A DNA stretch of 64,000 bases from an uncultured Acidobacteriota bacterium (lineage in GTDB: Bacteria; Acidobacteriota; Thermoanaerobaculia; Gp7-AA8), in the NCBI GenBank assembly GCA_963822445.1, contig CAWGHO010000002.1, positions 416,001-480,000 of the forward strand. The letters run 5' to 3'. Shown piece after piece: positions 1,980-27,078 of this stretch; the stretch's first letter is position 1, and every line of letters starts with the position of its first letter. Below the pieces are notes generated by a model that had not been told where the DNA came from, searched no databases, and saw only the letters and a list, made by a program, of their open reading frames with translations. The position numbers and the translations under genes were made by a program.

Positions 1980-2381
1980 CTATTCACTTTTGTTCGCAGG
2001 ATCCCAGTTCTTCGGCTCCCATAGCTCGACCTTATTGCCTTCGGGATCCATCACCCAGGCGAACTTGCCGTTCTCGTGTTTCTCCGGCCCCTGGTGGATC
2101 TCGACGCCGCCGGCGCGCAGCTGCGCGAGCAGCGCGTCCATGTCGTCCACGCGGTAATTGATCATGAACGAGGAGTTGCTCGGCGCGAACCATTGACTGT
2201 CGCTCTTGGCGAGGCTCCACACCGTCAGGCCCTTGTCCTCGGCCGTGTCGTCGGGCCACTTCAGGATCGCGCCGCCCCACTCCTCGAGTGAGAGGCCGAG
2301 GTGCTTCTGGTACCAGTCCGCGAGGGACTTGGGATCGTTTGCCTTGAAGAAAATGCCGCCGATGCCGGTGATGCGCGCCAT
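1980..2381 (-). CDS. VOC/glyoxalase-bleomycin resistance family protein
   Basis: ARITGIGGIFFK, MINYRVDDMD, GKFAWVMDPEGNKVELWEP; GGAG RBS upstream. Confidence 0.9.
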   Translation of the reverse strand: MARITGIGGIFFKANDPKSLADWYQKHLGLSLEEWGGAILKWPDDTAEDKGLTVWSLAKSDSQWFAPSNSSFMINYRVDDMDALLAQLRAGGVEIHQGPEKHENGKFAWVMDPEGNKVELWEPKNWDPANKSE

Positions 2382-2489
2382 TCACGCTCCTTGAAGCAAC
2401 AGGATTCTGCGCGGCGACTATATCGGCGTTTGTCGTCAGTTGATGAAGTGATTGAGCTTGGTCTGTCACGGCAGGCGTGATCGGGAAAC

Positions 2490-4163
2490 TCATCGCCTCC
2501 GTTTCCCCAGGAGCCAGAGCTCAGGCCGCCCATTGAGAACCTTCCCGGCGAAATCCAGCTGGAACGTCTCTCCGCCTGTCGTGGACACGACGATGTCCCT
2601 TTTCGTGTCGTTATCGAAATCGATGACCTCGAGGCGCCGGATTCGGGCCGACCTCGGGACGACCACACCTGCCCACACACGCTCGAGCTTCGAGTCCAGC
2701 AAAGCGACGGTGGCATGAGGGCGATCGGTGCCGAAGGTCGCACCGGGCTTGTCGTCGATACCGGCAACGATGATTTTGCGGGTGTGCCGCGAGGTTGGTC
2801 GGTCGATGACCATGGACTGCAAGTGGCCCACGTGGTCATACGAAAGAAGGCGTTGACCGTCGGCGGCGTAGAGGGAGACGCGGGAGGCCGAGCTTCCATC
2901 ACTCCACAAGGCGACGATCTCGAGGCCCTGGTCCTGACGCGACAGATCCTGAACGAGGAACTGCCGCAAGGTCGTGTCCTGCTGCGCGGACCAGCGCCGC
3001 AGACCTACCCGGTCGAACACGGTGATCGTGTTCGCGCCGACGACGACTTCCTGACTGCCATCCGCATCGAGATCCGCAACCTCCGCGCGTGTCACGAGGC
3101 CATCGACGCTGTGTTGCCAGAGCCGTTTACCGTTCGCCGAGAATGCCGCGACGGTCGAGCCATCGGTCACGGCGCGTGCGACATTGCCGGGCGGAGGCGG
3201 GGGAGGAGGACCATGGCAGATCGATAGCGGCATGTTCTGAGAGTCGCCGTCGATGCTGACCTGGGTAGCGGCGCGAATCGATGGATTGCGATTCGCGAGA
3301 ATCCACCTCCGGACATAGCGTTCCACGTAGGGTTTCAGCGTTCCGATCGTAACGGCGCCGCGCGTCAACGAGGCCTTACAGCTCATCCCGTTGATCACGG
3401 CTTTCGTGAACACCCCATTGCCATCACCTTCGTATGCATATCCGCCTGCCGTGGCAGCCGAGAACACGATCTGTCCATGCACGCGTCCCATCCTGCCGAT
3501 CATCGGCGCCCTGCCGGCGAGTGAGCCGCGCACATCAGGGATGCGGTTGCGACAGGTGTCGACGAGAAACAGCGATCGTTCCGCGTCCGATTTGCCGGCA
3601 ATGTCCAACAGCCGCGGCATCTGCAAGGCCGTTTCCGGATATCGAAAAAGAGAGCTCGAACCGAGAATGTATTGAACCCCGTCCTTCGTGAAGCCGTGTG
3701 TGGCGATCGACACGATGAGAATTCCGCCGGGGCCGGCGACGGCCGACTGTTTTTGCAGCAGGTCCAGAATGTCACTCGGCCCCGCCGGCTCGATTCTCGC
3801 CCCCGCTCGGACGAGCTCGTCGAGACGTCTTTTCGATGCTTCCTTTCTGGGCCGCCCCGACAGGGAGAGCACCACGCGATCCGGCGGCACGAGCAGTACT
3901 CGTGGATCGAGCGAGAACATATAAGCGAGATCCACCGCGTCGTCCGCCGCATATCGGACTTCGAGTGCCGGATCATTCGTGAATTTCGGCACGCCGATGA
4001 ACAGCGCGGCGGATTGAGCCGGATTGAATTTCGCCGGCTCGACCGGCGCCGCCTCGGGCACGAGTCGAACGCCGCGAAACAATCTCATTGCCACAGGCGA
4101 GACTGCCGCGGTCGTGACCAGGAGTGCTCCCAGTGCGACAACGAGCGGCTTCCAAAGCTTCAT
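2490..4163 (-). CDS. Caspase-like (peptidase C14) protein with N-terminal signal/TM and C-terminal FG-GAP-like repeats
   Basis: ALFIGV, AADDAVDL, IVSIATHG (His), LFLVDTCRN (Cys), GNGVFTKAV. A poly-Pro linker precedes ADLDADGSQEVVVG and IDFDNDTKRDIVVS. ATG at 4163 overlaps the hxsC stop (ATGA). Confidence 0.8.
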   Translation of the reverse strand: MKLWKPLVVALGALLVTTAAVSPVAMRLFRGVRLVPEAAPVEPAKFNPAQSAALFIGVPKFTNDPALEVRYAADDAVDLAYMFSLDPRVLLVPPDRVVLSLSGRPRKEASKRRLDELVRAGARIEPAGPSDILDLLQKQSAVAGPGGILIVSIATHGFTKDGVQYILGSSSLFRYPETALQMPRLLDIAGKSDAERSLFLVDTCRNRIPDVRGSLAGRAPMIGRMGRVHGQIVFSAATAGGYAYEGDGNGVFTKAVINGMSCKASLTRGAVTIGTLKPYVERYVRRWILANRNPSIRAATQVSIDGDSQNMPLSICHGPPPPPPPGNVARAVTDGSTVAAFSANGKRLWQHSVDGLVTRAEVADLDADGSQEVVVGANTITVFDRVGLRRWSAQQDTTLRQFLVQDLSRQDQGLEIVALWSDGSSASRVSLYAADGQRLLSYDHVGHLQSMVIDRPTSRHTRKIIVAGIDDKPGATFGTDRPHATVALLDSKLERVWAGVVVPRSARIRRLEVIDFDNDTKRDIVVSTTGGETFQLDFAGKVLNGRPELWLLGKRRR

Positions 4164-5314
4164 GCGATCCCATTCCCGTCGGAATCCAGCGGATGGATGC
4201 GCGCACTGCGGATCTTCGTTCCGGATTGAAAGAACCCTCCACACCGCTCGATCACGCCGCAGCCGTTGCACTCCGGGAGATACACATTTTTCCAATCGGA
4301 GATCGATTTGCGCGCCAGCGGCCAGAGCCGACGATCGAGAACGCAGAGCTGGTGGTTGTAAATCGACACGTTCATCCCTGCATCACGGAAGACATCACTG
4401 GCCGCGAGGAGCTCGCGCTGATAGTCGGCCGGATCGATCCAAAGCTCATCGAGATTTCGATGTACCAGGCCGAACATCTCCAGCCCCATGAGGGCGACGT
4501 GACATGCGAAGGGGAAATTGCGCGCGATGAACGCGGCCAGTTGGGGCAAGCGCGGAATGGAACGCGCGTGCAGGACGATCCGAATCTCGACGCGGACGCG
4601 GTGACGATCGAGGTTCTGCAATCCGATCACGGTCTGCTCGAATGCACCGGGCGCTTGCACGATGTGATCGTGAAGAGAATCAACGTCCGCATAAAGAGGA
4701 ATGCCGAGAACGAGATCCGGGTGATCGATTCGTCCGAGCTTTTCGGCGAAATGCCGATAGAAGAACAGGCGGCCGTTCGTCAGCACGTGAAGAGCGGTCG
4801 AGGGCAGGCGCTCTTTGCAGCGCGCGACGAGCTCGAGGAAGCCATCCCGAAAAAGCGTTGGCTCTCCCCCCGTGATCCCGAGCTCTTCCGTCGTCGGATC
4901 GATCAGGTCGATGAGGCGCAGGTGTTCCGCCAGACGATCGGAGTCGTCGATCGCTTTCGGGGGCTGTGAGCACATCAGGCAGAGGCTGTTGCACTGTTCG
5001 GTGACGAGAATGAAATTGTGCGGGGATCCGCGGCGATAGAGCGTCCGCACGAAGCCGTTCGGATCGACGGCCACGACGTCGCCGTCATCGAGATAGTCGA
5101 GCTGATGGAGACCGCTCGCCGTCGGAATTGCGGAAACGGAGGGTGCTTCTCCGAGCGCGAGAACGCCGAGGTAGCCATCGGGGTGACAAGGCAAAGCGCC
5201 GCCGCTGGCGAGCAGCCACGCATCGCCGCGGCCGGACGGCAGCGGCGAGCGTGCGACGCGCCCGATCAAAGTTCGATCGACATTCGTCACCCGGGCGTTC
5301 GCATGCAGCCTCAT
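4160..5314 (-). CDS. hxsC: His-Xaa-Ser system radical SAM maturase HxsC
   Basis: NFILVTEQCNSLCLMCSQPP (CxxxCxxC), GITGGEPT, LTNGR, ARKSISDWKN, C-terminal CNGCGVIERCGGFF; ATG at 5314 overlaps the hxsB stop. Confidence 0.92.
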   Translation of the reverse strand: MRLHANARVTNVDRTLIGRVARSPLPSGRGDAWLLASGGALPCHPDGYLGVLALGEAPSVSAIPTASGLHQLDYLDDGDVVAVDPNGFVRTLYRRGSPHNFILVTEQCNSLCLMCSQPPKAIDDSDRLAEHLRLIDLIDPTTEELGITGGEPTLFRDGFLELVARCKERLPSTALHVLTNGRLFFYRHFAEKLGRIDHPDLVLGIPLYADVDSLHDHIVQAPGAFEQTVIGLQNLDRHRVRVEIRIVLHARSIPRLPQLAAFIARNFPFACHVALMGLEMFGLVHRNLDELWIDPADYQRELLAASDVFRDAGMNVSIYNHQLCVLDRRLWPLARKSISDWKNVYLPECNGCGVIERCGGFFQSGTKIRSARIHPLDSDGNGIA

Positions 5315-6756
5315 GCGACCTGCTCCCGCTGTAATGGCTCTTCGCGGATCCACGACCACAACACGCGTCGGGTGACCTCATCACGCTCGAGGAGCGAGAT
5401 CAGGTGTTTGATGATGGAGAAGTTCTTTTCGTGGAAATCGCTGGTGGGAATGACCGGCACGAGGTCGCCGGTGGTCGCATAGTGATGCACCGGATCGGCG
5501 CCGCACCAAGGCAGAAACGCACAATCGGAGCAGCCGGGAAACGATTCGGCAACCGACGCGGCAATGATCCTGCGGAGGGTCTCGCCTCCGAAGATCGCCT
5601 CGTACGAATCGCGATGGACGTTGCCGAGGCGGAAGCGCGTGTCGCCCATTGCTGCCAGCATGCGCGACTCGTCCGTGGGGTAGACGTCGCCATCATGGTT
5701 GTAGACGACGGCACCGATTCCGGCACCGGCGGGACTCTGCAGGTCGACGTAGCCGGTGGCGAACGGCGTCAGGATTCGCGTCAGGAGAAGCTGCGCATAG
5801 CTCTCGATCAGAAACGTGCCGTCGGCATTGAGTCGAATGATGTAGTCGAGCGCGCGGACATAAAACTCGAGGAACTCACGCATCGAGTAACCGGTCGTGC
5901 GCACGCTACGCAATGCGAAGCCGTAAGGGCTCAAAGGGCGCAGGAAAATCGACGAAAATCCGAGGCGGACGTATTCGTCGACGATTGCTTCCGGCGACTG
6001 GAGGGATGCACTGGTGGTCGTCATGAGCGCGGCAACGCGATCGTGACCGAGCACTTCCCGAGCGCGCCGGATTCCGTCGATCGTTCGCGCGTGGCTGTCG
6101 TTGCCGGGCCGGGGACGATTGGCATCATGCAGGGCCTGCGGTCCGTCGAGAGACGTCGACAGGAAGACGCCGTGCTCGCGGAAGAAATCCAGCATCTCTC
6201 CGTCGAGCAAGGCCAGGTTCGTCGTCACGACGAAATCGACGTCGCGGCCGGCCGCGTCCGCGCGCCTCCGGCCTTCCACCACGATCTGCCGGACGCGATC
6301 GAAGTGCAGCAGCGGCTCACCACCCTGCAGCTCGATCTTGAGCCGCGGCGCCGGCGAGCGAAACGCAAGGTCGAGCCCGCGCTCCGCGGTTTCCTCGCTC
6401 ATGTCGTAGCGCTTTTTGTCGACGCTCACCCGCGAGACCTGACAGTAGTGACACGAATGCTCGCAACGCAGCGACACGACGAAGATGTGCAGGCTCGTGA
6501 ACCCGTCGAGGAATGCCTTCTTCGTCCGATACTTCGCCGCCAGCAGCTCGAATGGCGCAAGACTGTTGCTGTCGAAGAGGAAGTGCTTGGCCTTCAGATC
6601 GAGATAGGCGTCCGAGTCCGGCGACAGGTCACGCTGGACGAACCGCGCGAGATCGTCCTTCGCCAGAAAGTGAAACTCCCCTGTTTCATTGACGACCAAC
6701 GTCCTTGTTTGATCGAAGCGCAGGAATCGGAAAGGCAAGAGACGATACGCGCTCAT
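5311..6756 (-). CDS. hxsB: His-Xaa-Ser system radical SAM/SPASM maturase HxsB
   Basis: YRLLPFRF N-terminus, TSLHIFVVSLRCEHSCHYCQVS, IELQGGEPLL, YVDLQSPAGAG, DESRML, CSDCAFLPWCGADPV. Confidence 0.93.
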   Translation of the reverse strand: MSAYRLLPFRFLRFDQTRTLVVNETGEFHFLAKDDLARFVQRDLSPDSDAYLDLKAKHFLFDSNSLAPFELLAAKYRTKKAFLDGFTSLHIFVVSLRCEHSCHYCQVSRVSVDKKRYDMSEETAERGLDLAFRSPAPRLKIELQGGEPLLHFDRVRQIVVEGRRRADAAGRDVDFVVTTNLALLDGEMLDFFREHGVFLSTSLDGPQALHDANRPRPGNDSHARTIDGIRRAREVLGHDRVAALMTTTSASLQSPEAIVDEYVRLGFSSIFLRPLSPYGFALRSVRTTGYSMREFLEFYVRALDYIIRLNADGTFLIESYAQLLLTRILTPFATGYVDLQSPAGAGIGAVVYNHDGDVYPTDESRMLAAMGDTRFRLGNVHRDSYEAIFGGETLRRIIAASVAESFPGCSDCAFLPWCGADPVHHYATTGDLVPVIPTSDFHEKNFSIIKHLISLLERDEVTRRVLWSWIREEPLQREQVA

Positions 6757-7088
6757 CCAACGATTCCTCGGACATCGACGTACTGGTCGCTCTCGATGTC
6801 GCTCCGATCGAGTAAATCTGCCTCGCAGAACGCCTGTGCCACGAGCAGTTCGCGAATGACTCGGGTCTCGTCCGCAACGATCGCGCGCAGGCGAAAATCC
6901 AGAAGCGCATTCGAAAACTGTCCGGCCAGATCGCGCAGGGAATCGCGCTCGTCGCGGGCCGCAAACTCGATCGCCAAACGACCCTCGCCGGCATGGCGAG
7001 GCTGCACGTGGCAGCGTGCCGTGAATGCATGACAGGCCCGCAACACCAGCTCGAGCGGATAGATCGCCAGATCGACGGTGATGGTCAC
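6753..7088 (-). CDS. hxsD: His-Xaa-Ser system protein HxsD
   Basis: 111 aa from a GTG overlapping the hxsA stop. IYPLELVLRAC and FSNALLDFRLRAIVADETRVIRELLVAQAF match the HxsD-type LxDxxLR...T..IR..I motif; lies between hxsA and hxsB. Confidence 0.85.
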   Translation of the reverse strand: MTITVDLAIYPLELVLRACHAFTARCHVQPRHAGEGRLAIEFAARDERDSLRDLAGQFSNALLDFRLRAIVADETRVIRELLVAQAFCEADLLDRSDIESDQYVDVRGIVG

Positions 7089-8125
7089 GGCTGACGCTCC
7101 ACGGTCACGTGGTCGAACGCCGCGGCCTCGGTGGCCGGCGCGGGGGTCACGGTGCCGGCGCTCAACGCGATGCGCATTTCCGTCAACGGGATGCCTGCTG
7201 TTTCGACGTACTGCGGAAACCAATTCCTCCCGTCGGTGCTCGTTTCCCACACCGCTACCGGGGCGGCCGCAGCAACCTTGCTCGTGCGCAGGCGAAGAAA
7301 CCGATGTGCCGTCGCGCTATAGGCGAGCTTCTTCGAGGCCACGCGACCCTTCGTGTGGCTTTCGATGGAGAGATGACCGCTCTCGACTCGGAAGCCGATC
7401 CAGTTCCCGGAATCGATCGCCGCCGCGAAGATTGTCACCGCCCCTCGTGCCGGACGCCGGAGCTCCACAGCAACACTGGACGTTTTCAAATCGAACGATT
7501 GCGTCGAGACATACCCGCTGAAATGCGAGCCTCGCTGCAGCACCGGCGGCGCAACTCTCAATACACTCCCCATCTGCTCTGTCGTCACGTTCGGATCGAA
7601 CGTCTCGAGAGGCGTTGCGAGGACGCCGATGGTCCACCGCTCCGCGACCCGCTCGGTGGTCGCGAATTCCTCACTCAGGAGCGTCTCCGCTTTCGGTTCA
7701 GGAGGCCGCGGTTCGACGACTTTCGGGCGCGGCGGTTCCGGGGCGGGCGTAGTGGGCGTGCTCCGAGGCGGCGCGGGCGACGAGGAAAAGTGCGAGGAGT
7801 GTGCGCCCGAATAATGCGAGCTGGAGCTGTGCGATCGATGGGAGCTGTGGGACCGATGAGAACTATGCGAGCGATGTTGCGCAAAGCGGATGACGAACGA
7901 GCTCTCCGCGCGCTCGAGCACGTACCTGCCCTTGAATTTCCGCACAGTGGCCTCAGGCGCCAGGGTCGGCGCCACAGGAACGCGCGGCTGCGCACCGGCG
8001 CCAGCGCCGGCCTGCGTGGCCATTCCAAGGAGGCTCGCGCTCAATGCCACGCGTGCCGTGAGCCGGCGCAACGGAAGCACATCGAGCAGTTTCCATAGAG
8101 CGTTCTTCCAATCCGAGTCCGACAT
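7085..8125 (-). CDS. hxsA: His-Xaa-Ser repeat protein (HxsA-like) with Pro-rich linker and C-terminal beta-sandwich/lectin-like domain
   Basis: FAQHRSHSSHRSHSSHRSHSSSSHYSGAHSSHFSS (9 HxS triplets), hydrophobic N-terminal segment, PAPPRSTPTTPAPEPP linker, ~200-aa beta-rich C-terminal domain; AAGGGAG RBS. Confidence 0.85.
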   Translation of the reverse strand: MSDSDWKNALWKLLDVLPLRRLTARVALSASLLGMATQAGAGAGAQPRVPVAPTLAPEATVRKFKGRYVLERAESSFVIRFAQHRSHSSHRSHSSHRSHSSSSHYSGAHSSHFSSSPAPPRSTPTTPAPEPPRPKVVEPRPPEPKAETLLSEEFATTERVAERWTIGVLATPLETFDPNVTTEQMGSVLRVAPPVLQRGSHFSGYVSTQSFDLKTSSVAVELRRPARGAVTIFAAAIDSGNWIGFRVESGHLSIESHTKGRVASKKLAYSATAHRFLRLRTSKVAAAAPVAVWETSTDGRNWFPQYVETAGIPLTEMRIALSAGTVTPAPATEAAAFDHVTVERQP

Positions 8126-8135
8126 ATGGCTCCCT

Positions 8136-9983
8136 TCACTGCGCGCGTCGTCGTTCGCTGCGCTCGATCGCAGCGACGTCGCGCGCCATTGCCACGCGCA
8201 ATGCGATCAACGGCGGCGTTCCCCAAACCTCCGCCGTCCGTTCCCATGAAACGAGGATCTCTTCGGCCGTGAGCTCGCTTCGAAAGCGACTTCGGAGATC
8301 CCGCTCCCGTCTCGCCGACGCGGCGGCACTCAGACCGGCGGCGTGGATGGCATCCGTCACCGTTTGCCATTCGGAAGATGAAACGCCGAGGCTCTGCGCC
8401 GCGATGACCGAGTCGGCGGCTTCGGACCAATGCTTTCGCGCAAGTTTTTGCCGCGCCAGCGGAATGTGGACGGCGGCCGAAACGGCGGCACTTTCCGGTT
8501 TTCCGCGTGCACGGGCGCTGAGCAGGCGGAGCGCGTCAGAGCCATCGGTCCAGCGTTGCGCGGACGCCGCTTCACGCGCCTTGGTGAGGATCAGTTGATC
8601 GATCGCATCCGTCGCCTCTCCGTACTGCGGAAGCTCGCGTGGAATCTGAGCGAGAGCGGTCCGCGCCGCCTCGAGCTCGGTGGCCTGCCGAATTCGGGCG
8701 AGCCGCAAATCGGCCCAGGAACGCCGCCCTGCACTGCCGCCCAGCGATTGCAGCTCCGACTCGGCATCGTCGAGCTTTCCCGCCGCGATCAGCCCATCGG
8801 CGCGACCGACGCGCGGAAGAGCGGCGAACGCAAATGCGATGGCGACGATGAGGGTCACCGTGATGGCGATGAACCACTTCCGCGTTTCCAGTCGCGACGC
8901 CGTCCAATCCGCGCTCGCGCGGTAAATCGAAGCTAAAGCGGCGCCGAACGCTACGAGACTGGCGAGCGTCGCCATGCTCCAGAAAAATGGGCCGCGCGCG
9001 AGTGATACCAGCACGATCACGCCGTAGATGGCGACCAGGACCAGAAGCAGAGCACGCAGGTTCGCGGCACGAATCACGAACAGAGCAGCCGCGGCCTCCC
9101 GCGGCGCGGAAAGGCGGCGCCCCGCGAACGCGACGGAGTCCTTCGCGGCGCCCACGCGATAGTGCACGGTATGCGTCGGTACGCGCGCAATTCGGAGCCT
9201 CTGCCGCTGCACTCGCTCACCGGACATCAATACGGGCTCGAGCACCTCCAGCCATTGCAACGGGATGTCGCCGAGATCGCTTGCGGCGAGGACATGCGGA
9301 CGTTCGAGATCGGCGATCACATGTGCGTCGCGCTCGATGATTTCGTTCACGGGGTTCTCCATCCACCCGAAACGCGACGCGAGCTGCTGCGGATGAACCG
9401 TCGGGATCGAGCGACGCCACCATTCGAGCTCGAGCCAGCGCTGCACGCGCCCCTCGCCCGCACAGATCGCGCAGACCGCCACGCCGCGGCGGCACTCCGC
9501 GCAATCGACAGCACCCTTGCCACGACACGCCGTGCAATTGAGCAGACGCCACGCGCCGTTCGCGGTGTAGCCATACGCCTTGCGTTCCCCGCCGCATGCA
9601 CCGCAGGTTCGTTTTCCGCTTCCGTCGCATGCTGCGCAACGGGTTTTCCCTGCACCCGCGCATGGATCGCAAAGAGCGACGTGATCACTCTGCTTTCGAA
9701 GCGAGGGCGCGTCGGCCACCCATGCGTCGACTTCCTCGGCAACGATCGGAGGCGGAAGTGTGATGCGAGCCCTGCCGGCGGCCGGTACCGATTTCCAGAC
9801 CACACGTTGTCCCCGCAAGTCCGTCTCGATCAGACCGATGTAATCGTGCGTCACCGCCACGTGCTCGAGGAGCGAACGCACGTCGCGCGGAGCGCCGTCC
9901 TGCAGCGATGCCCAGTGAACGAAGGCATCGCCTGCCATCTGATTTTCGCCGGCGGACAGGGGCGTCATCCCTGGCATAGACAC
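8136..9983 (-). CDS. Membrane protein with DnaJ-type CxxCxGxG zinc-finger repeats, ~3 TM helices and a helical (TPR-like) C-terminus
   Basis: CDPCAGAG, CAACDGSG, CGACGG, CTACRGKG, CAECRRG, CAICAGEG; hydrophobic segments in the middle third. Start may be ATG 9977. Confidence 0.7.
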   Translation of the reverse strand: MSMPGMTPLSAGENQMAGDAFVHWASLQDGAPRDVRSLLEHVAVTHDYIGLIETDLRGQRVVWKSVPAAGRARITLPPPIVAEEVDAWVADAPSLRKQSDHVALCDPCAGAGKTRCAACDGSGKRTCGACGGERKAYGYTANGAWRLLNCTACRGKGAVDCAECRRGVAVCAICAGEGRVQRWLELEWWRRSIPTVHPQQLASRFGWMENPVNEIIERDAHVIADLERPHVLAASDLGDIPLQWLEVLEPVLMSGERVQRQRLRIARVPTHTVHYRVGAAKDSVAFAGRRLSAPREAAAALFVIRAANLRALLLVLVAIYGVIVLVSLARGPFFWSMATLASLVAFGAALASIYRASADWTASRLETRKWFIAITVTLIVAIAFAFAALPRVGRADGLIAAGKLDDAESELQSLGGSAGRRSWADLRLARIRQATELEAARTALAQIPRELPQYGEATDAIDQLILTKAREAASAQRWTDGSDALRLLSARARGKPESAAVSAAVHIPLARQKLARKHWSEAADSVIAAQSLGVSSSEWQTVTDAIHAAGLSAAASARRERDLRSRFRSELTAEEILVSWERTAEVWGTPPLIALRVAMARDVAAIERSERRRAQ

Positions 9984-10010
9984 GGTTCCGATGGAATCGG
10001 CACCGTCGGA

Positions 10011-11229
10011 TCAGCGGCCGAATTTGAGGACCGGCGTCGTCCCCTCGGGCTCGCAGGTCTGTCGCTCCGCCAGTTCGACGCGGCCGGCGTCGTAGCGCAA
10101 ATTGGTCACGTTCCAGATGCGAAATGCGCAATCGGGGGAGGATTGAACGTCCGCACCTGACATCCCCGGGTGTAGACCTGCACCATTGCACCGGCGTCAG
10201 CGATCGTGCCGCTGCCTTGATAGACGTGAATGAAGTAGCGGAAGTCTCCCACCGCGTCGCCGCGCACCGTGAGTGTCTCGTAACGCCCGGGGTAGACCTC
10301 ATCGACATCGAGCCGGGCGAAGGTCCGACCGTTGGGCAACACGCCTTCCTTGTTCCGGAAATAGACAGTGTCGGCTGCCGGGAAGCGCGTTGCGTTCGAC
10401 TGCCAGAAATGCGTGTCGAGGTCACGTGGATCGTTGCGCCAGCCGAGAACGAAACGGGCGACTTCATCGTCCTTGAGGTCTGGAGAAAGAGGCAACGCCG
10501 CACGTGTAATCTTCCCGGGGCGCACTTCGAATTCACGTTCCGAGGGGCAGTACCCGGGCGCCTGCGCGGAGAAGCGATGCCGTCCCGGTGGCAAGTCGAC
10601 TGTGACGACGCGTCGCGGACTCGACGACAGAGAACGCGTACGATCCTTCACGATCGCGTCGACCGGCTCGGCCGCTCGCATGGCATTGAACGTTGCGATT
10701 TCCAGTCTGCCGAACGTCGGTTTCAGATCGACAGGAACGCGAACGCTCTGCAGCGCGGCCGCCTGCACCCGTGCGGTCCGCGGGTGGTAGCCGTCGAGAC
10801 GCGCCGTATAGCTGCCAGACCCGCTGTTGATGCGGCCGAGACGCGCAATGAACAGACCGCCGATGTGAGTGATCGGCACCGACATCGCCCGTCCGGTGGC
10901 GTCGTCCGTCACAGTGAGGCGGCGGGACGTGAGGTCGGCATCGAATACGCTGTCGCGCACCGCGAGATCGAGATACGCGGGCGGCGTCAGAAACCAGGGG
11001 ACGCTCAACAGGCCGAGCCCAGCCACGATCATCGAGCAGAGGAACGTGAGCGGTTTGCGCTCGTTCGGAATGGCTGCCATCGCAAATCCTAGCGTCGCCC
11101 CGATGACGGCGTCGAAGCGGCCGGCTTCACGAGCACGCGATGCGTCCACTGCAGGTCGATGAACGCAAAAAGCGTCAGCGCCAAACCAAAGAAGAAGAGC
11201 AGGAAGAGAAGGCGGGCCGCTCGGTTCAT
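10011..11229 (-). pseudogene. Membrane-anchored PEGA/carboxypeptidase-regulatory-like + YfaP (DUF2135)-like protein with two -1 frameshifts (pseudogene or sequencing error)
   Basis: The N-terminus MNRAARLLFLLFFFGLALTLFAF (ATG 11229) shifts frame near 11120 into ORF 10106..11368 (VLGWRNDPRDLDTH, ARLDVDE, FRYFIHVY, VQVY). A second shift at a G5 run near 10135 continues PDCAFRIWNV...LKFGR to a stop at 10011. Confidence 0.6.
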
Positions 11230-11231
11230 GA

Positions 11232-14200
11232 TCAGGCAACCTCCAACGGACTCTCGCACACCGAGCAACGTCCCCGCGGCTCGACGTTCGAATAGCAGAT
11301 CGAGCATTGCACGAGCGCCGCGATGGGAACGGGCATGGACTCGACGACGGTCGCCGTTCGCGACTCATCTTCCTGAGCCGCGACGCTGAGAATCGGCCCC
11401 TCGGCGATCGGCATCACTGGCCCGACCTTCGGGTCATACCCGCAATTGGGGCACGGATACTGATCCTCGTAACCACTCCAGGTGAAGCACTGCGGACAAT
11501 CGATCGTCTCGTCCTCACGCATCCGCAGGCCGCATTTCCAGCAGAGCTCGAGATCGTCGGGTACGCGCGATTCCTGGCAATGCGGACAGGCGACATGCGC
11601 GGCGATCATCTTCTGGCAATGGGTGCAGTGCACGGCGCGCCGATCGATCGGTTTCGCACACGACGGACAAGGACGATCGCCGAATTGCTTCTCGACCACG
11701 GCGACCGGAGCAGCAGGACGAAGAGGAGGCGTCACCACCTGCTCCCTGGCCGCGCTCTTGTCGATCCTGGTGATGTCGAGCGCGAAGATGTCGCGCCAGG
11801 CGATGGCCGTATGCACGACGGCGTCTTCCGTCCGCGTTGCGAACTTGCCCGCGGTCTTTGTATATGGCGCGAGCACATCGCGGTACTCCTCGTAGCTCAG
11901 GTCTTGCGCGAGATCCTTGTTAGTGAGCGTCCTGTATTGAGTGACGAACTGTTTCTGCTCGTCTGCCTCGCCCACGATCTGCGCCAGCCGCATGCGCGCT
12001 TGCGCCAGCACGGCATGCTCGGGCGAATACTGCATCATCGTCAGGTCGGGGATGCCGCTCTGATCGAGCTGGCGCGGCGGATAGACCTTCTTCAGGTAGA
12101 AGTCGAGGAGCAGCCGATAGACGGCGAGCTTTTTCTGTTCGCGCAGCATCTGGATGGTCTTCTCGATCTTCTGCAATAGGTACCGGCGATGCGTCAGGTG
12201 CTCGCTCCGCCGGTCGCGGTAGAGAAAGTCGACGGCATGGGCTTCACCGCCGAGGTTCACGTCTTCAGCAATCAGGTCGGTGAGATGCTGGTAGCTGAAG
12301 CGGAACGCCAACTGGTCTCCGTCCGACGGTAGAGGGTGCGTGGTCAGCAGTCCGAGCAGCCGTGCCAGCACGAACGCCGTCAGCGAATCGGCATACTGCT
12401 TCGCTTCGCCTGCCTGTTTCGGGATCAGATCCGCGAACTGAAAGCGGTTCTTGTCGGTGTGCAGCTCTTCTTTCTCGGCGAACGCGTTGTATGCCGCCCG
12501 CAGGCCGTGAGGGGCGGTGACGGAGCTGGGATAGAAGGCCGGAATGCCCGCCAGCTCGTGGTAGAAGACGATCGTGCCGCGGTGCTGCTCGCCGATGTTC
12601 TGATAGCTCGGCATGGTGTCACCGGGTGAACGGGCGCCGTCGACGAGGTGCTTGAATTCCGCGACTTTCTGCACGTTTCCGGCGTCGTCGAACCCGATCA
12701 GGCAGGGGCGCTGATCGGTGCTCACCGGCGCCAGCCCGGTGTGCTCCAGGCCGTGATCGCTCGGTGCGACCCACACCTTCGACAGGCGGTAGGCCTGCCG
12801 CACCATGTCGGTCCGCTCCCGCACGCTGAAACGGTTGCCGTCGAAGAGCATCGTCAAAGCGTCCGGTTGTCTCGGCTTCCGGACGATGAAGTCGCGGCAC
12901 TTGGACAGGATTTGTTCTTCGACTGTCTCCGAGGGCGTGCGCTGAATTTTCGCCAGCGCAGCGGTCACGCCGTCGACCTCGAAAACTTCGGCGAGGATCT
13001 GGCTGCCGACCATTTTCAGCGTCTGCGCTTCCGCGGCGGGCTCCCCGATCCAGGTCCGATACCACTCCTCCACGTCGCCATCGCGAAACAGGGTCAGCGT
13101 GAGCTCGGACTTCTCCGGTTTCGAGAAATAGGCATCCTTCTTCTGCAGATGCTCCTTGACGCGAGCGAAGCCAACCAGCAGCTCGTAATAACGGCCGAGC
13201 AGCCCGTCGCCGCCCTGGTGGTCGGGACCGAGGAACCGGTCGAGCTCATCGCAGATCTGCCGGCCGCGTTTGGCGATCTGCTTGCCGACACGCGCATGGA
13301 AATGGTTGTAGAAGACGCCGCGATCCTCGTCGCCATCGTCGGCCACGAGCTTTTCGTAATCGCGCTTGAGATCAGGCGAACGGAAGAGTAACTGTTCCTC
13401 GTGACGGGCCATGTCCAACTGCAACTGGTCGAGCGCGTAGGCGTAGTACTGCACGCGGTCACGCCATTGCGGAAGGCGTTCGTCGAAATAGTGCATGTAG
13501 CGGAAGTTCTCGTTGCGGAGAAGCGCCTTGAGCTCGCGGAGAAGCGAGAGCGTGTAATTGACGCCGTATTGAGGGTTGTCGGAGAGCTCGGCCGCTTTCG
13601 CTTCGATCCCGGTTTTCACCCGTTCCAGATACGTGCGCATGTTCGTGTCGAGGTGGCGCACGCCCATTCCCCACTCGTCGGGATTCTCGGAGTCTTCCCT
13701 GGCGAAGAACTGGTCGAGCTCCGCGCGGCGCTGGCTGAGAAGTGACGCTTTCTGACCGTTCGGCGTGTCCGCGAGCTCTGCGCGCAGGCTCTGAGCTTTC
13801 TGCCAGAGGTGACTCTCGAACGTGCGGCCACCGCCGGCATCGAAGACCGTCAGCGCATCTTCGATGTCGACATGCTCGATGATGCCCCCGCCGTCGCGGC
13901 GCTCATAACTGCCCTGCGCGCACTGCACGCGCTCGTCGGTCAGGAATTTGGTGAAGAGATGCTCGAGAGGATCGTCGACGATGCTCTTCTGCCAGTAATC
14001 GAGAATCTGCGAGGCCAGACGGCTCGCGCAGGCGGCCTGCACGCGCTCCGTCGGAAAGGAGATCGTGGCCAGGCCGAAGGAGCCGAAACGACAAGGGAAG
14101 GTATCGCCGACGATGTCTTTGTGCGTCGCGTCGCGGTCCTGGCGCAGCGCGACGTTGAGGAAGTTGTGCGTGTATACATTGAGATTGAACTGTTCGAGGT

Positions 14201-15182
14201 TGACGCGCGTCGCGCGCTTCATTCCGGCGAAGGCGCCGATCGAATAATCCTGGTACAGCACCTCGGCCACCATCCGATAGACGTCGAGCTCCTTGCCGCC
14301 CGAGCCGATGGCCAGTCCCGCTTCATTGCGTCCGTCGATCAGGTAGGTGCTGCTGAACGGCGGCGGCCCCATTTGCTCTTTTTGGTGGCCGGTCCAGTCG
14401 GCGGTGAACATGTGCGCGAACGTGTAATGGTTCAGCTCCATCAGTGCCGCGTAACCATTCGCGCGCACCCGCTCGGCGCCCGCGTAGGCGCTGAAGAAGC
14501 CGGGGAACAGCAGAATGCCGACGCGCTCCGCCGCAGGGAAATAGCGCCGGGCCAGAAACCCCGCGTCGAGAAAGGTCCCGCTGCCGGTTCCGCCGGCCAG
14601 CGAGGCGACGATGACCACCTTCATGTTCGAGGCGCTGAAGTCGAATCCGAATCGCGCCGCTTCGGCGAGGATGGCCGCGTCGGTCAGCTCGCGCCGGCAT
14701 TGCTCGAGCCGGCCGGTGATCTTCTGATGATTGGCGGCATCGAAGAATCCGAGACGGCTGGCGATGCGCACCTGGCCGGCCCCTTCGCGCAAATCGCCGA
14801 GGTGCGCGATTTTCCCGCCGGCCGGGAACCAGCGCTTGACGCTCGGAAAATTGTCGAGGTGCTCGACGTACTTTCCGGTACCTCCGGCGATGGTCAGATC
14901 GATGCGCTCGGTGTTGGAAAACTGCACTTCGCGATACAGAGGATCGTCGCTGCTGCGCAGGTCGTACTGCTCGGCCGCGGTCTGATTCTTGTCCGTATCG
15001 ATGTGCATGAAGCGGAGAAACGGCAGGCGCGACAGCGTGCCGTAACGCTCCACGATCTTGCGCCGCAGACGGAGCAGCACTTCCTTCCCCGTCCCGCCCA
15101 GGCCAATGAGCAGAGTCGGGCCGACCGGCTTGTCGTTGACCTGCGTCGAGGGAAGGCTGGTCTGCAGAAGTTCGAGGTTCAT
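11232..15182 (-). CDS. Tubulin-like (Tubulin_2 family) GTPase with long helical region and four C-terminal zinc ribbons
   Basis: TLLIGLGGTGKEV, FMHIDTD, GAGQVR, SLAGGTGSG, ANGYAALMEL. C-terminal ribbons: CPSC..CTHC, CPHC..CWKC, CPQC..CPNC, CSIC..CSVC. AGGAGA RBS. Confidence 0.85.
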   Translation of the reverse strand: MNLELLQTSLPSTQVNDKPVGPTLLIGLGGTGKEVLLRLRRKIVERYGTLSRLPFLRFMHIDTDKNQTAAEQYDLRSSDDPLYREVQFSNTERIDLTIAGGTGKYVEHLDNFPSVKRWFPAGGKIAHLGDLREGAGQVRIASRLGFFDAANHQKITGRLEQCRRELTDAAILAEAARFGFDFSASNMKVVIVASLAGGTGSGTFLDAGFLARRYFPAAERVGILLFPGFFSAYAGAERVRANGYAALMELNHYTFAHMFTADWTGHQKEQMGPPPFSSTYLIDGRNEAGLAIGSGGKELDVYRMVAEVLYQDYSIGAFAGMKRATRVNLEQFNLNVYTHNFLNVALRQDRDATHKDIVGDTFPCRFGSFGLATISFPTERVQAACASRLASQILDYWQKSIVDDPLEHLFTKFLTDERVQCAQGSYERRDGGGIIEHVDIEDALTVFDAGGGRTFESHLWQKAQSLRAELADTPNGQKASLLSQRRAELDQFFAREDSENPDEWGMGVRHLDTNMRTYLERVKTGIEAKAAELSDNPQYGVNYTLSLLRELKALLRNENFRYMHYFDERLPQWRDRVQYYAYALDQLQLDMARHEEQLLFRSPDLKRDYEKLVADDGDEDRGVFYNHFHARVGKQIAKRGRQICDELDRFLGPDHQGGDGLLGRYYELLVGFARVKEHLQKKDAYFSKPEKSELTLTLFRDGDVEEWYRTWIGEPAAEAQTLKMVGSQILAEVFEVDGVTAALAKIQRTPSETVEEQILSKCRDFIVRKPRQPDALTMLFDGNRFSVRERTDMVRQAYRLSKVWVAPSDHGLEHTGLAPVSTDQRPCLIGFDDAGNVQKVAEFKHLVDGARSPGDTMPSYQNIGEQHRGTIVFYHELAGIPAFYPSSVTAPHGLRAAYNAFAEKEELHTDKNRFQFADLIPKQAGEAKQYADSLTAFVLARLLGLLTTHPLPSDGDQLAFRFSYQHLTDLIAEDVNLGGEAHAVDFLYRDRRSEHLTHRRYLLQKIEKTIQMLREQKKLAVYRLLLDFYLKKVYPPRQLDQSGIPDLTMMQYSPEHAVLAQARMRLAQIVGEADEQKQFVTQYRTLTNKDLAQDLSYEEYRDVLAPYTKTAGKFATRTEDAVVHTAIAWRDIFALDITRIDKSAAREQVVTPPLRPAAPVAVVEKQFGDRPCPSCAKPIDRRAVHCTHCQKMIAAHVACPHCQESRVPDDLELCWKCGLRMREDETIDCPQCFTWSGYEDQYPCPNCGYDPKVGPVMPIAEGPILSVAAQEDESRTATVVESMPVPIAALVQCSICYSNVEPRGRCSVCESPLEVA

Positions 15183-15194
15183 TCGTTTTCTCCT

Positions 15195-15566
15195 TTACGC
15201 GGGCACGCGGCGCATCAAAAGGACCGCGCCCGAGATCAGCCACCACACGGCGAGGAAAACGGCCGTCCACGGAAGCCACGCCCAATAGAAACCGATGTCG
15301 AGCACGACGTAGAACGACACGAAAATCCAGGTGAGGGAGTAAAGGAAGAAGAGGTTCCAGAAGATGGTCTTGCAGAATTCATCGCGGTAATACCGCCGAA
15401 AGAACGGATACACCGCCTTGTAGAGCACGACCCAGATCATGACGACGACCAGAAAGACCGCGGCGCCGCGCAACAGCAGGTTGTCGGATTCTTCGAACGC
15501 GCGCCCACTCTGGGCGGCGGCCGGCACCGCCACAATCAGCGACGACAGAGCATTACGGCATTTCAT
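15195..15566 (-). CDS. Small multi-pass membrane protein
   Basis: ATG 15566 with AGGAG RBS; 3 strongly hydrophobic/aromatic segments. Confidence 0.7.
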   Translation of the reverse strand: MKCRNALSSLIVAVPAAAQSGRAFEESDNLLLRGAAVFLVVVMIWVVLYKAVYPFFRRYYRDEFCKTIFWNLFFLYSLTWIFVSFYVVLDIGFYWAWLPWTAVFLAVWWLISGAVLLMRRVPA

Positions 15567-15583
15567 GAGCGACTCCTTTCGAT

Positions 15584-18552: not shown

Positions 18553-18561
18553 ACTCGGTCC

Positions 18562-19515
18562 TCACCGACTCCGGTTGACGATCACCTCGGGTTGTCGAAG
18601 GACCTGCTGTCCTTCGATGAACCCGTTTCGAATCACACCGGTAATGACACCGTCCGCGACGCGGGGGTCATTCGTGGTGGAGCGGCCGATGTGGCGTGCG
18701 CTGTCGAACAGCGTCTCCCCGAGCGTCACTTCGATCGGCTCGACGGCGGCGATGCGCAGTAGCTGGCGCACGAGATCCACGCCGTTCTGCAGCTCATCCG
18801 GACGCTGCTCGAGCTGCGCCTGCTGATAGCGCTGGAGATACAGGTCCGCAAACGGGAGGAACGATTCAGTGACCCAGCTCTGGAATCGGAACGCGAAGCG
18901 GCTTGCGTCGGAAGTGAGCAGCCCCGCCAGCTCGCGCGTGCGGCGTACCTCCTCCGCATCCGTTTCGAGGCGTGGAAACTTGCCGCTGATGATGCGCGGG
19001 ATGAATCCGATGCGCTGAATGACCGTGCGATGCTCGCGGCACGGCCCGATCACGCCGTCGAACGTCGGCCTCAGATCGGAGGGCACGACCTGCGTCAGCT
19101 CATCGAGAATCCCCTGCCACGCGTTGTCGTGCGTCGCGCTCTCGAATGCAGCACTCAGCTCCTTGTTCGCGCAGAACTGGTTCCACTCCGCGCCCAGGAT
19201 CTGGTGCTCGAGCGCGACGGCGTCGGTCGACACGGGCGGCCTCGCGGCAATTTGCTCGACGATGCGAAGGACGCCGGTCACTTCCGCGCGCAGAAGGGCG
19301 AGCTCGTTCGCGATCGGATCCAGTTGCTCGACAGTAAGGACATTCGCCTTATTTACTTTCTCGTCGAGAACATCGATCACAGCATTCAGCCGCTTCGCTG
19401 CGTCCGTTTCTTCGAGCACGGCGCGCCTGCGTCGGAACAGAAGAAACACGAGCAGCACCACCGCGATCAGCGACAGCGCAGCGCAGGCGACGATCAACAT
19501 GGTCTGAATGGTCAT
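18562..19515 (-). CDS. Membrane-anchored GrpE-like protein
   Basis: N-terminal TM, coiled coil, C-terminal GETLFDSARH...GVITGVIRNGF...VLRQPEVIV (GrpE beta-domain signature FDP..H / V..GY / LRPA.V.V); ATGA overlap. Confidence 0.72.
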   Translation of the reverse strand: MTIQTMLIVACAALSLIAVVLLVFLLFRRRRAVLEETDAAKRLNAVIDVLDEKVNKANVLTVEQLDPIANELALLRAEVTGVLRIVEQIAARPPVSTDAVALEHQILGAEWNQFCANKELSAAFESATHDNAWQGILDELTQVVPSDLRPTFDGVIGPCREHRTVIQRIGFIPRIISGKFPRLETDAEEVRRTRELAGLLTSDASRFAFRFQSWVTESFLPFADLYLQRYQQAQLEQRPDELQNGVDLVRQLLRIAAVEPIEVTLGETLFDSARHIGRSTTNDPRVADGVITGVIRNGFIEGQQVLRQPEVIVNRSR

Positions 19516-25391: not shown

Positions 25392-25401
25392 GTCGAGTAC
25401 C

Positions 25402-27042: not shown

Positions 27043-27078
27043 GTGAACTTTCTCGCGATGACGGGAAAGACACGGACG

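What the first reader, a model, noticed from the sequence alone, without database searches (positions are those of the whole stretch)
7085..8125. Atypical 346-aa HxsA: export-like leader + 9 HxS triplets + Pro linker + lectin-like domain
Seen: the HxS block (7784..7876) uses varied synonymous codons (CAT CGC TCG, CAT CGG TCC, CAT CGA TCG), so the repeat is maintained at protein level rather than by recent DNA slippage. It follows RRL plus a hydrophobic stretch and precedes a Pro-rich linker and a ~200-aa beta-rich domain (GYVS..FDL, AHRFLRLR, VWETSTDG.NW) that looks like a concanavalin-like sandwich. Inference: the radical SAM product may be a modified, possibly metal-binding, protein displayed outside the cell with a glycan-binding domain, not a small released peptide.
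Basis: partly seen in the sequence, partly recalled or inferred. Interest (0 to 1): 0.78.

Follow-up and report, generated by a model that had tools for sequence, protein, structure and literature searches.

The report
HxsA defence effector with lectin-fold tail
This gene encodes the His-x-Ser repeat protein of a radical-SAM "HXS" anti-phage system, but its usual cell-wall-binding end is replaced by a concanavalin-like beta-sandwich, which suggests that the anchoring part of this effector is interchangeable.

Summary
ORF 7085..8125 (-) encodes a 346-aa protein with five parts:
- a basic and hydrophobic leader;
- a conserved pre-repeat segment;
- 9 HxS triplets at residues 84-114;
- a Pro-rich linker;
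- a confidently folded all-beta domain (residues ~147-346, pLDDT 87-99).

Foldseek places the last domain in the concanavalin-A-like lectin/glucanase fold (GH16, GH43 C-terminal domain, DUF1349).

It is the first gene of a tightly coupled hxsA-hxsD-hxsB-hxsC cassette. HxsB, HxsC and HxsD all score over their NCBIfam cut-offs.

A 2026 paper (PMC13128918) showed that HXS is an anti-phage system. Its HxsA is an exported protein matured by radical SAM (rSAM) enzymes and anchored by a peptidoglycan-binding domain.

What is new here:
- the PG_binding_1 domain is replaced by a ConA-like module;
- the gene order is A-D-B-C;
- the host belongs to the Acidobacteriota.

No NCBIfam HxsA model (A, A3; A2/A4 gave no hit) and no Pfam model covers this protein.

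About 90 relatives share the architecture. In a sample of 401 genomes of the phylum, 4 of the 8 HXS loci carry it. The other four carry cadherin/Big_9 repeats, PG_binding_1, an unknown small domain, or none.

Export, glycan binding and defence are inferred, not shown. Verdict: a new variant of a known kind, of moderate interest.

The parts
7085..8125 (-). hxsA variant, 346 aa (stop codon 7085..7087)
   Evidence: ORF and translation. It matches TIGR03979 only over the repeat, at 22.7 bits. About 90 full-length relatives exist.
7991..8125 (-). Leader, residues 1-45: a basic ~25-aa n-region (predicted helix 3-16), a moderately hydrophobic stretch VALSASLLGMA, and an Ala/Gly-rich end
   Evidence: AF2 helices 3-16 and 20-32. 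Hydrophobicity and conservation across 72 homologues, with RR in 42 of 72. A signal peptide is inferred; no predictor was run.
7877..7990 (-). Conserved pre-repeat segment, residues 46-83 (P-R-V-P motif, predicted beta-hairpin 59-72, invariant L70). Candidate recognition element for the maturases.
   Evidence: Conservation. Hairpin in the AF2 model at low confidence. The recognition role is inferred.
7778..7876 (-). His-x-Ser array, residues 84-116: 9 HxS triplets, 9 His, 3 Arg, 17 Ser, no acidic residue
   Evidence: Invariant H/S columns.
7688..7777 (-). Pro-rich linker, residues 117-146 (13 Pro of 30)
   Evidence: Low pLDDT. Least conserved region: 37% identity to close and 18% to distant relatives.
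7088..7687 (-). Concanavalin-A-like beta-sandwich domain, residues 147-346
   Evidence: Block pLDDT 87-99. Foldseek matches to GH16, the GH43 C-terminal domain, DUF1349 and ERGIC-53, with E from 5e-7 and target-normalised TM 0.55-0.67. ESM Atlas finds GH43_C2/DUF1349 clusters at 0.95-0.96. No Pfam hit. No ExDx(x)E motif.
6753..7088 (-). hxsD, 111 aa. Its GTG start overlaps the hxsA stop (GTGA).
   Evidence: TIGR03976 at 58.7 bits against a cut-off of 50. Overlap read. Same start in relatives.
5311..6756 (-). hxsB, radical SAM/SPASM maturase, 481 aa. Its ATG overlaps the hxsD stop.
   Evidence: TIGR03978 at 599.7 bits against a cut-off of 370. Radical_SAM and SPASM domains.
4160..5359 (-). hxsC, radical SAM maturase (start codon uncertain; the family match begins at residue 90 of the ORF)
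   Evidence: TIGR03977 at 382.9 bits against a cut-off of 267.9.

Best explanation
The ORF is the effector/substrate protein (HxsA) of an HXS-type radical-SAM system, in a variant form.

Shown here:
- It heads a translationally coupled hxsA-hxsD-hxsB-hxsC cassette.
- It has the family's HxS array behind a conserved N-terminal segment.
- After a Pro-rich spacer it ends in a well-folded concanavalin-like beta-sandwich. In the characterised HxsA that position holds a peptidoglycan-binding domain.

Inferred by analogy with the characterised E. coli system (PMC13128918):
- HxsB/HxsC/HxsD modify the HxS region and process the N-terminus in the cytoplasm.
- The protein is exported across the inner membrane.
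- The ConA-like module tethers it to an envelope polymer (a glycan, or another envelope component), while the flexible Pro-rich linker presents the basic, modified HxS array.
- The array interferes with incoming phage DNA.

On this reading the C-terminal domain of HxsA is an interchangeable anchoring or targeting module, and this is the ConA-like version.
For: Cassette:
- HxsB scores 599.7 (cut-off 370), HxsC 382.9 (cut-off 267.9) and HxsD 58.7 (cut-off 50).
- The stop/start overlaps are GTGA and ATGA.
- Only these four genes are shared with the more distant loci G070 and G120. In G137 hxsA, hxsB and hxsC were found and hxsD was not detected.

Array: 9 HxS triplets, with invariant H and S columns in 72 homologues.

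Domain:
- pLDDT 87-99.
- ConA-like fold: 216 PDB matches at E <= 0.001, the top ones being GH16, the GH43 C-terminal domain, DUF1349 and ERGIC-53.
- The ESM Atlas agrees.

The same domain family occurs in proteins that look secreted:
- 737 cluster representatives match at E <= 1e-3.
- Only 14 of the best 150 carry HxS repeats.
- Of 9 long ones scanned, 6 carry known Pfam domains over their cut-offs: fn3, PKD, He_PIG, Kelch/galactose-oxidase, S8 protease, metallophosphoesterase, DMFA2_C.
- The conserved residues of the domain are the same in 138 non-HxsA copies.

The C-terminal position is modular. Eight genomes in a 401-genome sample of the phylum have HxsB over its cut-off. Their HxsA forms are ConA-like in 4, cadherin/Big_9 repeats in 1, PG_binding_1 in 1, an unnamed small domain in 1, and no domain in 1. 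One metagenome HxsA has PG_binding_1 plus TonB_C.

Export:
- A hydrophobic leader segment is conserved.
- The G137 member has a short N-terminus that I read, by eye, as a classical signal peptide.

Published mechanism for the family: PMC13128918, sections 8-11 read.
Against: - No signal-peptide predictor was available. The n-region is unusually long (~25 aa), and the twin-arginine is not conserved (42 of 72).
- No ligand site was identified. Glycan binding rests on fold class alone, and ConA/LamG folds also mediate protein-protein contacts.
- The protein fails every NCBIfam HxsA model: A scores 22.7 of 121.65, A3 scores 20.4 of 65, and A2 and A4 gave no hit at E <= 0.01.
- The gene order differs from the order the paper reports for 99.6% of systems.
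- Anti-phage activity has been shown only for an E. coli-type system with a PG-binding HxsA, which is very distant from this one.
- PADLOC (2023) has no HXS model and gave only weak viperin-like radical-SAM hits.
- No expression data could be obtained.
Confidence: 0.6

Rival explanations
1. Same matured, exported HxS protein, but the ConA-like domain is a recognition module for something foreign (a phage tail or capsid glycoprotein, or a phage-modified surface) rather than a self-anchor. It would act as an adaptor that brings the HxS array to the infecting particle.
For: ConA/LamG-like folds are common in phage minor tail and receptor-binding proteins (49 BFVD matches at E <= 0.001), so the fold suits host-phage interfaces. 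HxsA is less conserved than its maturases among close relatives: 55-64% against 76-82% for HxsB and HxsC.
Against: The conserved residues of the domain are the same as in 138 copies in unrelated multidomain proteins. That argues for a generic ligand rather than a fast-evolving phage target. The published HxsA showed no interaction with T7 gp15/gp16 and needs its self-anchoring PG domain (PMC13128918, sections 8 and 9).
Confidence: 0.15
2. One reading: a His-rich, modified metal-binding protein displayed outside the cell with a lectin domain (for example metal capture or an adhesion/redox role), unrelated to phage defence in this lineage.
For: 9 His sit in 33 residues. No defence test exists for this variant. 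The family had no known function for over a decade (PMC13128918, discussion).
Against: The only experimental data for HxsABCD show phage defence and DNA binding (PMC13128918). The locus occurs sporadically, in 8 of 401 genomes of the phylum, like an accessory system rather than a housekeeping metal system. No transporter or metal-regulator gene is conserved with the cassette.
Confidence: 0.15
3. The N-terminus is not an export signal. The protein stays in the cytoplasm or is membrane-anchored by the hydrophobic helix, and acts at the inner face of the membrane.
For: The n-region is long, and the h-region is short and only moderately hydrophobic (mean KD about 2.0 over 11 residues). The paper calls HxsA export non-canonical (section 8).
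Against: The G137 relative has an N-terminus that I read, by eye, as a classical short signal peptide. The same ConA-like family sits in proteins with fn3, PKD and He_PIG domains typical of secreted proteins. The canonical HxsA is periplasmic (PMC13128918).
Confidence: 0.07
4. The C-terminal domain is an active GH16-like glycanase, and the protein is a secreted enzyme.
For: The top Foldseek matches are GH16 glucanases.
Against: There is no ExDx(x)E catalytic motif anywhere in the protein. Sequence identity to the GH16 matches is 9-16%. The nearest sequence-level relatives are non-catalytic accessory domains: DUF1349 below threshold and GH43_C2 clusters.
Confidence: 0.03

Closest known systems
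HxsA of the HXS anti-phage system (E. coli/Klebsiella type; TIGR03979; Li et al., Nat Commun 2026, PMC13128918)
   Same: Tandem HxS array after an N-terminal leader and a conserved pre-repeat segment. A Pro-rich spacer and then a folded C-terminal domain. Encoded together with HxsB, HxsC and HxsD, all of which pass their equivalog cut-offs.
   Different: The C-terminal domain is a ~200-aa ConA-like sandwich instead of the ~57-residue (Pfam profile length) PG_binding_1. It has 9 HxS against 5, and 346 aa against about 214. The order is A-D-B-C instead of D-B-C-A. The host is in the Acidobacteriota, whereas the paper places 99.7% in Pseudomonadota. TIGR03979 scores 22.7 against a cut-off of 121.65.
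Short HxsA types in NCBIfam: HxsA2 (NF038296), HxsA3 (NF038309), HxsA4 (NF038313)
   Same: An HxS array with a leader. The ConA-type protein of genome G137 has an N-terminus that passes the HxsA2 cut-off (56.9 against 48).
   Different: Those models are 81-96 positions long and describe proteins without a C-terminal domain. The window's protein scores 20.4 of 65 on A3 and gives no hit at E <= 0.01 on A2 or A4.
DUF1349 (PF07081) / GH43_C2 (PF17851) branch of the concanavalin-like clan; solved examples 3mep, 3o12 and the C-terminal domain of GH43 beta-xylosidases (2exh)
   Same: Fold. Motif pattern of the H-R-x-x-R-x-R and W-E-T-S-x-D-G-x-x-W type. Sub-threshold DUF1349 hits in relatives. ESM Atlas neighbours.
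   Different: Below the Pfam gathering score in all sequences tested. A profile search of PDB sequences finds only 3o12, at E 0.18. The function of DUF1349 is itself unknown.

Membership tests
HXS system (HxsABCD) | HxsB radical SAM/SPASM maturase over the TIGR03978 cut-off | tested here: met
   599.7 bits against 370
HXS system (HxsABCD) | HxsC radical SAM maturase over the TIGR03977 cut-off | tested here: met
   382.9 bits against 267.9
HXS system (HxsABCD) | HxsD over the TIGR03976 cut-off | tested here: met
   58.7 bits against 50. The start overlaps the hxsA stop.
HXS system (HxsABCD) | Adjacent protein with tandem His-Xaa-Ser repeats | tested here: met
   9 HxS at residues 84-114. None of 20,000 shuffles reaches 9.
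HXS system (HxsABCD) | Gene order D-B-C-A (99.6% of systems in PMC13128918, section 10) | tested here: not met
   The order is A-D-B-C here and in the other ConA-type loci where hxsD was found (G070, G120, L023-L026). In G137 the order is A-B-C and hxsD was not detected.
HXS system (HxsABCD) | Protection against phage by blocking DNA entry | not testable with these tools
   Needs expression and phage challenge.
HxsA, canonical (TIGR03979) | Score over the model's cut-off (121.65 bits) | tested here: not met
   22.7 bits, residues 77-131 only. Canonical controls P0099 and P0114 score 128.5 and 128.9.
HxsA, canonical (TIGR03979) | C-terminal peptidoglycan-binding domain (PF01471) | tested here: not met
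   No Pfam hit at E <= 0.01 for the whole protein, nor at E <= 10 for the domain. Controls hit PF01471.
HxsA, canonical (TIGR03979) | N-terminal signal peptide and periplasmic location | tested here: inconclusive
   A hydrophobic segment is conserved, but no predictor was available and the n-region is atypically long.
HxsA, canonical (TIGR03979) | rSAM-dependent +8 Da modification in an HxS repeat, and N-terminal processing | not testable with these tools
   Needs mass spectrometry.
Concanavalin-A-like lectin/glucanase fold | Curved beta-sandwich matching solved members | tested here: met
   Foldseek probability 1.00, E from 5.3e-7, target-normalised TM 0.55-0.67, on a model with pLDDT 87-99 in this domain.
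Concanavalin-A-like lectin/glucanase fold | Membership of a named Pfam family of the clan (DUF1349, GH43_C2) | tested here: not met
   No hit for this protein. Relatives give only sub-threshold DUF1349 hits, 18.9-30.1 bits against 32.4.
GH16 glycoside hydrolases | Catalytic ExDx(x)E motif | tested here: not met
   No match in the protein.
Concanavalin-A-like lectin/glucanase fold | Carbohydrate binding | not testable with these tools
   Needs glycan array or pull-down experiments.

The most novel reading that the evidence does not exclude
The rSAM-matured HxS array is a portable 'warhead'. Evolution re-targets it to different envelope layers by swapping the C-terminal adaptor: PG_binding_1, PG_binding_1 plus TonB_C, cadherin/Big_9 repeats, or this ConA-like lectin fold. 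The ConA-like version, which was half of the HXS loci in the Acidobacteriota sample, would tether the array to a non-peptidoglycan glycan (LPS, capsule, EPS or a glycoprotein layer). It would then intercept phage genomes at a different depth of the envelope than the E. coli system does. In that case the specificity and location of an entry-blocking defence could be programmed by a domain swap.
Probability: 0.3. Interest if true: 0.65.

Novelty: new variant of a known kind. Interest (0 to 1): 0.47.

Why it matters
HXS is the first defence system reported to stop phage DNA entry, and it has been studied only in its enterobacterial form (PMC13128918). That paper's survey places 99.7% of systems in Pseudomonadota and describes one HxsA architecture.

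This locus and its ~90 relatives show that the maturase trio HxsB/C/D also serves effectors whose anchoring domain is quite different. They also show that in another phylum the lectin-fold form is as frequent as all other forms together (4 of 8 sampled loci).

This gives a direct experimental handle on an open question for the system: what the C-terminal domain contributes (position in the envelope, host range of the defence). It also marks a protein family that no NCBIfam or Pfam model currently names. At least one member is annotated cut short in a public record.

Tried and rejected
- VIA-align searches ('pdb_via_wide', then 'pdb_via') were not available on the machine. I relied on Foldseek against the PDB and BFVD and on the ESM Atlas.
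The taxonomic range of the distant ConA-type members therefore rests only on source names and on kinship labels.
- Complex prediction, HxsD (alignment of 9 rows) with HxsA residues 45-135 (alignment of 72 rows): no verdict, score 0.00 against a mark of 0.32, controls not folded. It is neither evidence for nor against binding.
- The look-up of sequencing runs on 4160..8125: none was listed and no RNA holder was listed.
- The promoter/terminator scan of 2000..11500 gave 0 promoter-like sites (1.3 expected) and 7 terminator-like sites (6.5 expected), which is uninformative.
- PADLOC gave no HXS hit. Only weak viperin-type radical SAM similarity appeared for HxsB and HxsC. I noted this library's date (2023).
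- A profile of the C-terminal domain (21 sequences) against PDB sequences gave only 3o12, at E 0.18.
- Tat export was considered and left open. The RR is present in 42 of 72 homologues and absent from most of the distant ones.
- 'C-terminal domain as a separate gene' was rejected.
  - The 195-aa NCBI entry P0049 lies inside a full open frame with leader and repeats on its own contig.
  - The pairs P0047/P0273 and P0071/P0274 have equal longest-contig lengths, and I took each pair to be one gene on one contig. They read as frameshifts inside the domain, not at its border.
  - P0277 reads as a frameshift in the linker. Their DNA was not seen.
  - Most other short hits are on contigs of 1-3 kb.
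- Tree of the domain:
  - In a FastTree of 179 copies, all 17 HxS-linked copies fall in two groups (15 and 14 tips, local supports 84 and 53) with no copy from multidomain proteins inside.
  - On a reduced set (those 29 plus 45 of the 142 multidomain copies, drawn at random), the tree holding the 29 together was 14.6 log-likelihood units better than the free quick search, with p-AU 0.76.
  - One origin of the fusion is not rejected. The group was named after seeing the first tree, so this is weak.
Its Fig. 5d data or supplements may list rare HxsA architectures that I could not see.
Full report
**What is there**

The - strand ORF 7085..8125 encodes 346 aa, starting at an ATG 5 nt after a GGGAG. 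The protein has five parts.

- Residues 1-45: a basic stretch predicted as a helix (3-16), then LRRLTAR-VALSASLLGMA and an Ala/Gly-rich end.
- Residues 46-83: a conserved segment (P50 nearly invariant, L70 invariant) with a weakly predicted hairpin at 59-72.
- Residues 84-116: the His-x-Ser array, with 9 HxS triplets, 9 His, 3 Arg, 17 Ser and no acidic residue.
- Residues 117-146: a Pro-rich linker with 13 Pro in 30.
- Residues 147-346: an all-beta domain.

The protein has no Cys.

Nine HxS triplets are far beyond chance: 0 of 20,000 shuffles reach 9, with a mean of 1.65. At DNA level there is only an 18-bp period x 3 at 80% matches. H84, S86, H87, S89, H90, S95 and H96 are invariant in 72 homologues. 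The repeat is therefore held by selection on the protein.

**Surroundings**

hxsA is followed on the same strand by three genes.

- hxsD (6753..7088): TIGR03976 at 58.7 bits, cut-off 50.
- hxsB (5311..6756): TIGR03978 at 599.7 bits, cut-off 370, with Radical_SAM and SPASM domains.
- hxsC (4160..5359): TIGR03977 at 382.9 bits, cut-off 267.9.

The hxsD GTG overlaps the hxsA TGA, and the hxsB ATG overlaps the hxsD stop.

Comparison with loci from other genomes shows that these four genes are the only unit shared with the distant relatives G070 and G120. In G137 hxsA, hxsB and hxsC were found and hxsD was not detected. In four closely related MAG loci (L023-L026) the flanking genes are syntenic too.

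**The C-terminal domain**

AlphaFold2 with a 72-sequence alignment gives mean pLDDT 80. The 10-residue blocks from 131-140 to the C-terminus score 87-99, while residues 1-130 score 44-70.

Fold comparison:
- Foldseek against the PDB returns 216 matches at E <= 0.001.
- The best are GH16 endo-glycanases and lichenases (6t2r, 1u0a, 3i4i, 1gbg), DUF1349-type proteins (3mep, 3o12), mycobacterial pseudo-glucanases (4xxp, 4wzf), the C-terminal sandwich of GH43 beta-xylosidases (2exh and others) and the L-type lectin ERGIC-53.
- E-values start at 5.3e-7. Target-normalised TM is 0.55-0.67 and identity is 9-16%.
- Query-normalised TM is low (0.3-0.45) because the query includes the unstructured first 146 residues.
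- The ESM Atlas places the domain next to clusters carrying GH43_C2 and DUF1349 (scores 0.95-0.96).
- BFVD gives ConA/LamG-like domains of phage minor tail proteins.

At sequence level:
- There is no Pfam hit.
- Relatives give only sub-threshold DUF1349 hits.
- A 21-sequence profile finds only 3o12 among PDB sequences, at E 0.18.
- The GH16 catalytic motif is absent.

An enzymatic role is unlikely.

**How widespread the domain is**

The domain alone finds 737 representatives (50%-identity clusters) at E <= 1e-3 in 1.84 billion proteins, 235 of them at <= 1e-10. Of the best 150, 14 carry three or more tandem HxS.

The rest are mostly long multidomain proteins. Of 139 examined, 119 hold near-full copies: 67 with one copy, 43 with two and 9 with three.

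Nine long ones were scanned against Pfam.
- Six showed known domains over their cut-offs: metallophosphoesterase plus fn3, DMFA2_C (three proteins, one also with He_PIG), Kelch/galactose-oxidase plus PKD plus fn3, and a subtilase.
- Two gave only sub-threshold hits.
- One gave none.

The residues conserved in the HxsA copies recur in 138 copies from non-HxsA proteins (corrected by two positions for trimming). These are F154, W164, G204, S207, N241, H274, R275, R278, R280, E294, T295, S296, G299, W302, G324 and F337.

The HxsA tail is thus an ordinary member of an unnamed accessory-domain family, typical of secreted proteins, that has been recruited to HxsA. The window's own genome holds no second copy detectable with this protein (1 match).

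**How common the fusion is**

- About 90 proteins of 286-387 aa share the whole architecture. The few source names given are Thermoanaerobaculia/Acidobacteriota MAGs.
- Canonical HxsA proteins with PF01471 appear only at E 1e-7 to 1e-4, through the repeat.
- In 401 genomes sampled from the window's phylum, HxsB passes its cut-off in 8.
- The adjacent HxS proteins of those 8 are of five kinds:
  - ConA-like in 4 (G000, G070, G120, G137; the last two are outside the window's class).
  - Three cadherin/Big_9 repeats in G045.
  - PG_binding_1 in G153, which passes TIGR03979 at 126.8 bits and has the B-C-A order.
  - A small domain with no Pfam match in G224.
  - No domain after the repeats in G158.
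- A metagenome HxsA carries PG_binding_1 plus TonB_C.
- The ConA-type protein of G137 has an N-terminus that passes the HxsA2 model (56.9 against 48). By eye it also has a short classical signal peptide.
- On a domain tree, all 17 HxS-linked copies fall in two groups free of multidomain copies, and a single origin is not rejected (p-AU 0.76, on a subsample).

**Is the tail a separate gene in relatives?**

I found no case at the domain border.

- The 195-aa NCBI entry P0049 sits, on its own contig, inside a 364-codon open frame. That frame begins with the leader and repeats and is followed by hxsD and hxsB. It is an annotation cut short.
- A search for shorter proteins found 79 hits. The strong ones are mostly on contigs of 1-3 kb.
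- Among the strong hits on longer contigs, the two pairs P0047/P0273 and P0071/P0274 read as frameshifts inside the domain. I paired them by equal contig length. P0277 reads as a frameshift in the linker. Their DNA was not seen.

**What is known**

Li et al. (Nat Commun 2026, PMC13128918; abstract and sections 8-11 read) report the following.

- HxsABCD is an anti-phage system that blocks DNA entry.
- HxsA has a signal peptide, five HxS repeats and a peptidoglycan-binding domain, all required for activity.
- HxsB/C/D are needed for N-terminal processing and a +8 Da modification in an SHRSS motif.
- Periplasmic HxsA binds DNA.
- 99.7% of systems are in Pseudomonadota, and 99.6% have the order D-B-C-A.

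The words concanavalin, lectin, Acidobacteri-, architecture and fusion do not occur in its main text. Searches for 'His-Xaa-Ser', 'HxsA' and 'HxsB/HxsC' found no other paper treating HxsA architecture. PMC9062424 (passages read) only cites the family.

**Mechanism, with the status of each step**

Shown here:
- the cassette;
- the repeat array and its conservation;
- the folded ConA-like tail;
- the modularity of the C-terminal position.

Inferred by homology of the three maturation proteins to the characterised system:
- cytoplasmic modification and processing of the HxS region.

Inferred from the leader, from the signal-peptide-like N-terminus of a family member, and from the secreted-type company the domain keeps:
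- export.

Inferred from position and fold class only:
- the ConA-like domain takes the place of the peptidoglycan anchor and tethers the array, through a ~30-residue proline spacer, to an envelope polymer.

Inferred from the published system only:
- interference with phage DNA entry.

HxsA is less conserved than its maturases among close relatives (55-64% against 76-82%). The linker is the most variable part and the repeat the least.

**Verdict**

The fold call is supported. The 'exported modified protein' idea is right in kind but already published for the family. Glycan binding and metal binding remain untested.

The locus is a new architectural variant of a known system, in a phylum and gene order that the published survey barely covers, and no current family model names it.

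Noticed in passing
window 8136..9983 (-): A 615-aa ORF ends 10 bp before the hxsA start. It has no Pfam or NCBIfam hit. It carries several CxxC-type Cys pairs in residues ~105-175 and hydrophobic stretches around 305-400. It is 52% identical to the ORF in the same position in L023 and is present upstream of hxsA in L023, L024 and L026; L025's contig ends too early to tell. It is not found near the G070, G120 or G137 cassettes.
   Followed up: partly
window 2490..4295 (-): A 601-aa ORF lies directly after hxsC. It has a weak caspase (EACC1-associated type) match and sub-threshold FG-GAP/PQQ-type repeat hits, which may indicate a beta-propeller. It is conserved after hxsC in 4 of 4 close loci, and a homologue lies about 3 kb from hxsC in G070. 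It may be linked to the cassette in this clade.
   Followed up: partly
window 11232..34437 (-): A run of genes of the kind seen in conflict or signalling islands: Tubulin_2 plus zinc ribbons (11232..15182), GrpE-like (18562..19719), HSP70-like (20936..23770), Ser/Thr kinase (25402..27042), VWA (27079..28488), TPR-CHAT (29090..32227) and caspase C14 (32224..34437). None hit PADLOC among those tested.
   Followed up: no
L023 3494..4588 (+) (MAG contig DASPNA010000080.1): The public 195-aa protein entry (P0049) for this gene begins at an internal Met. The DNA holds a full-length ConA-type hxsA frame followed by hxsD and hxsB.
   Followed up: yes
proteins P0047/P0273 and P0071/P0274 (metagenome contigs of 6,936 and 34,993 bp): I paired these by equal contig length. 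Two relatives appear broken by frameshifts within a few codons of the same spot (around the conserved H-F-x-G-Y-V-S strand) inside the ConA-like domain. P0277 looks frameshifted in the Pro-rich linker. The DNA was not seen, so these could be sequencing errors or real decay.
   Followed up: no
L005 1297..2256 (+) (G137): This ConA-type HxsA has an N-terminus that passes the HxsA2 model. By eye it has a short classical signal peptide, unlike the long leader of the window's protein.
   Followed up: partly
L009 733..2001 (-) (G045); protein P0100: Two other HxsA tails: three cadherin/Big_9 repeats in G045, and PG_binding_1 followed by TonB_C in a metagenome protein.
   Followed up: partly
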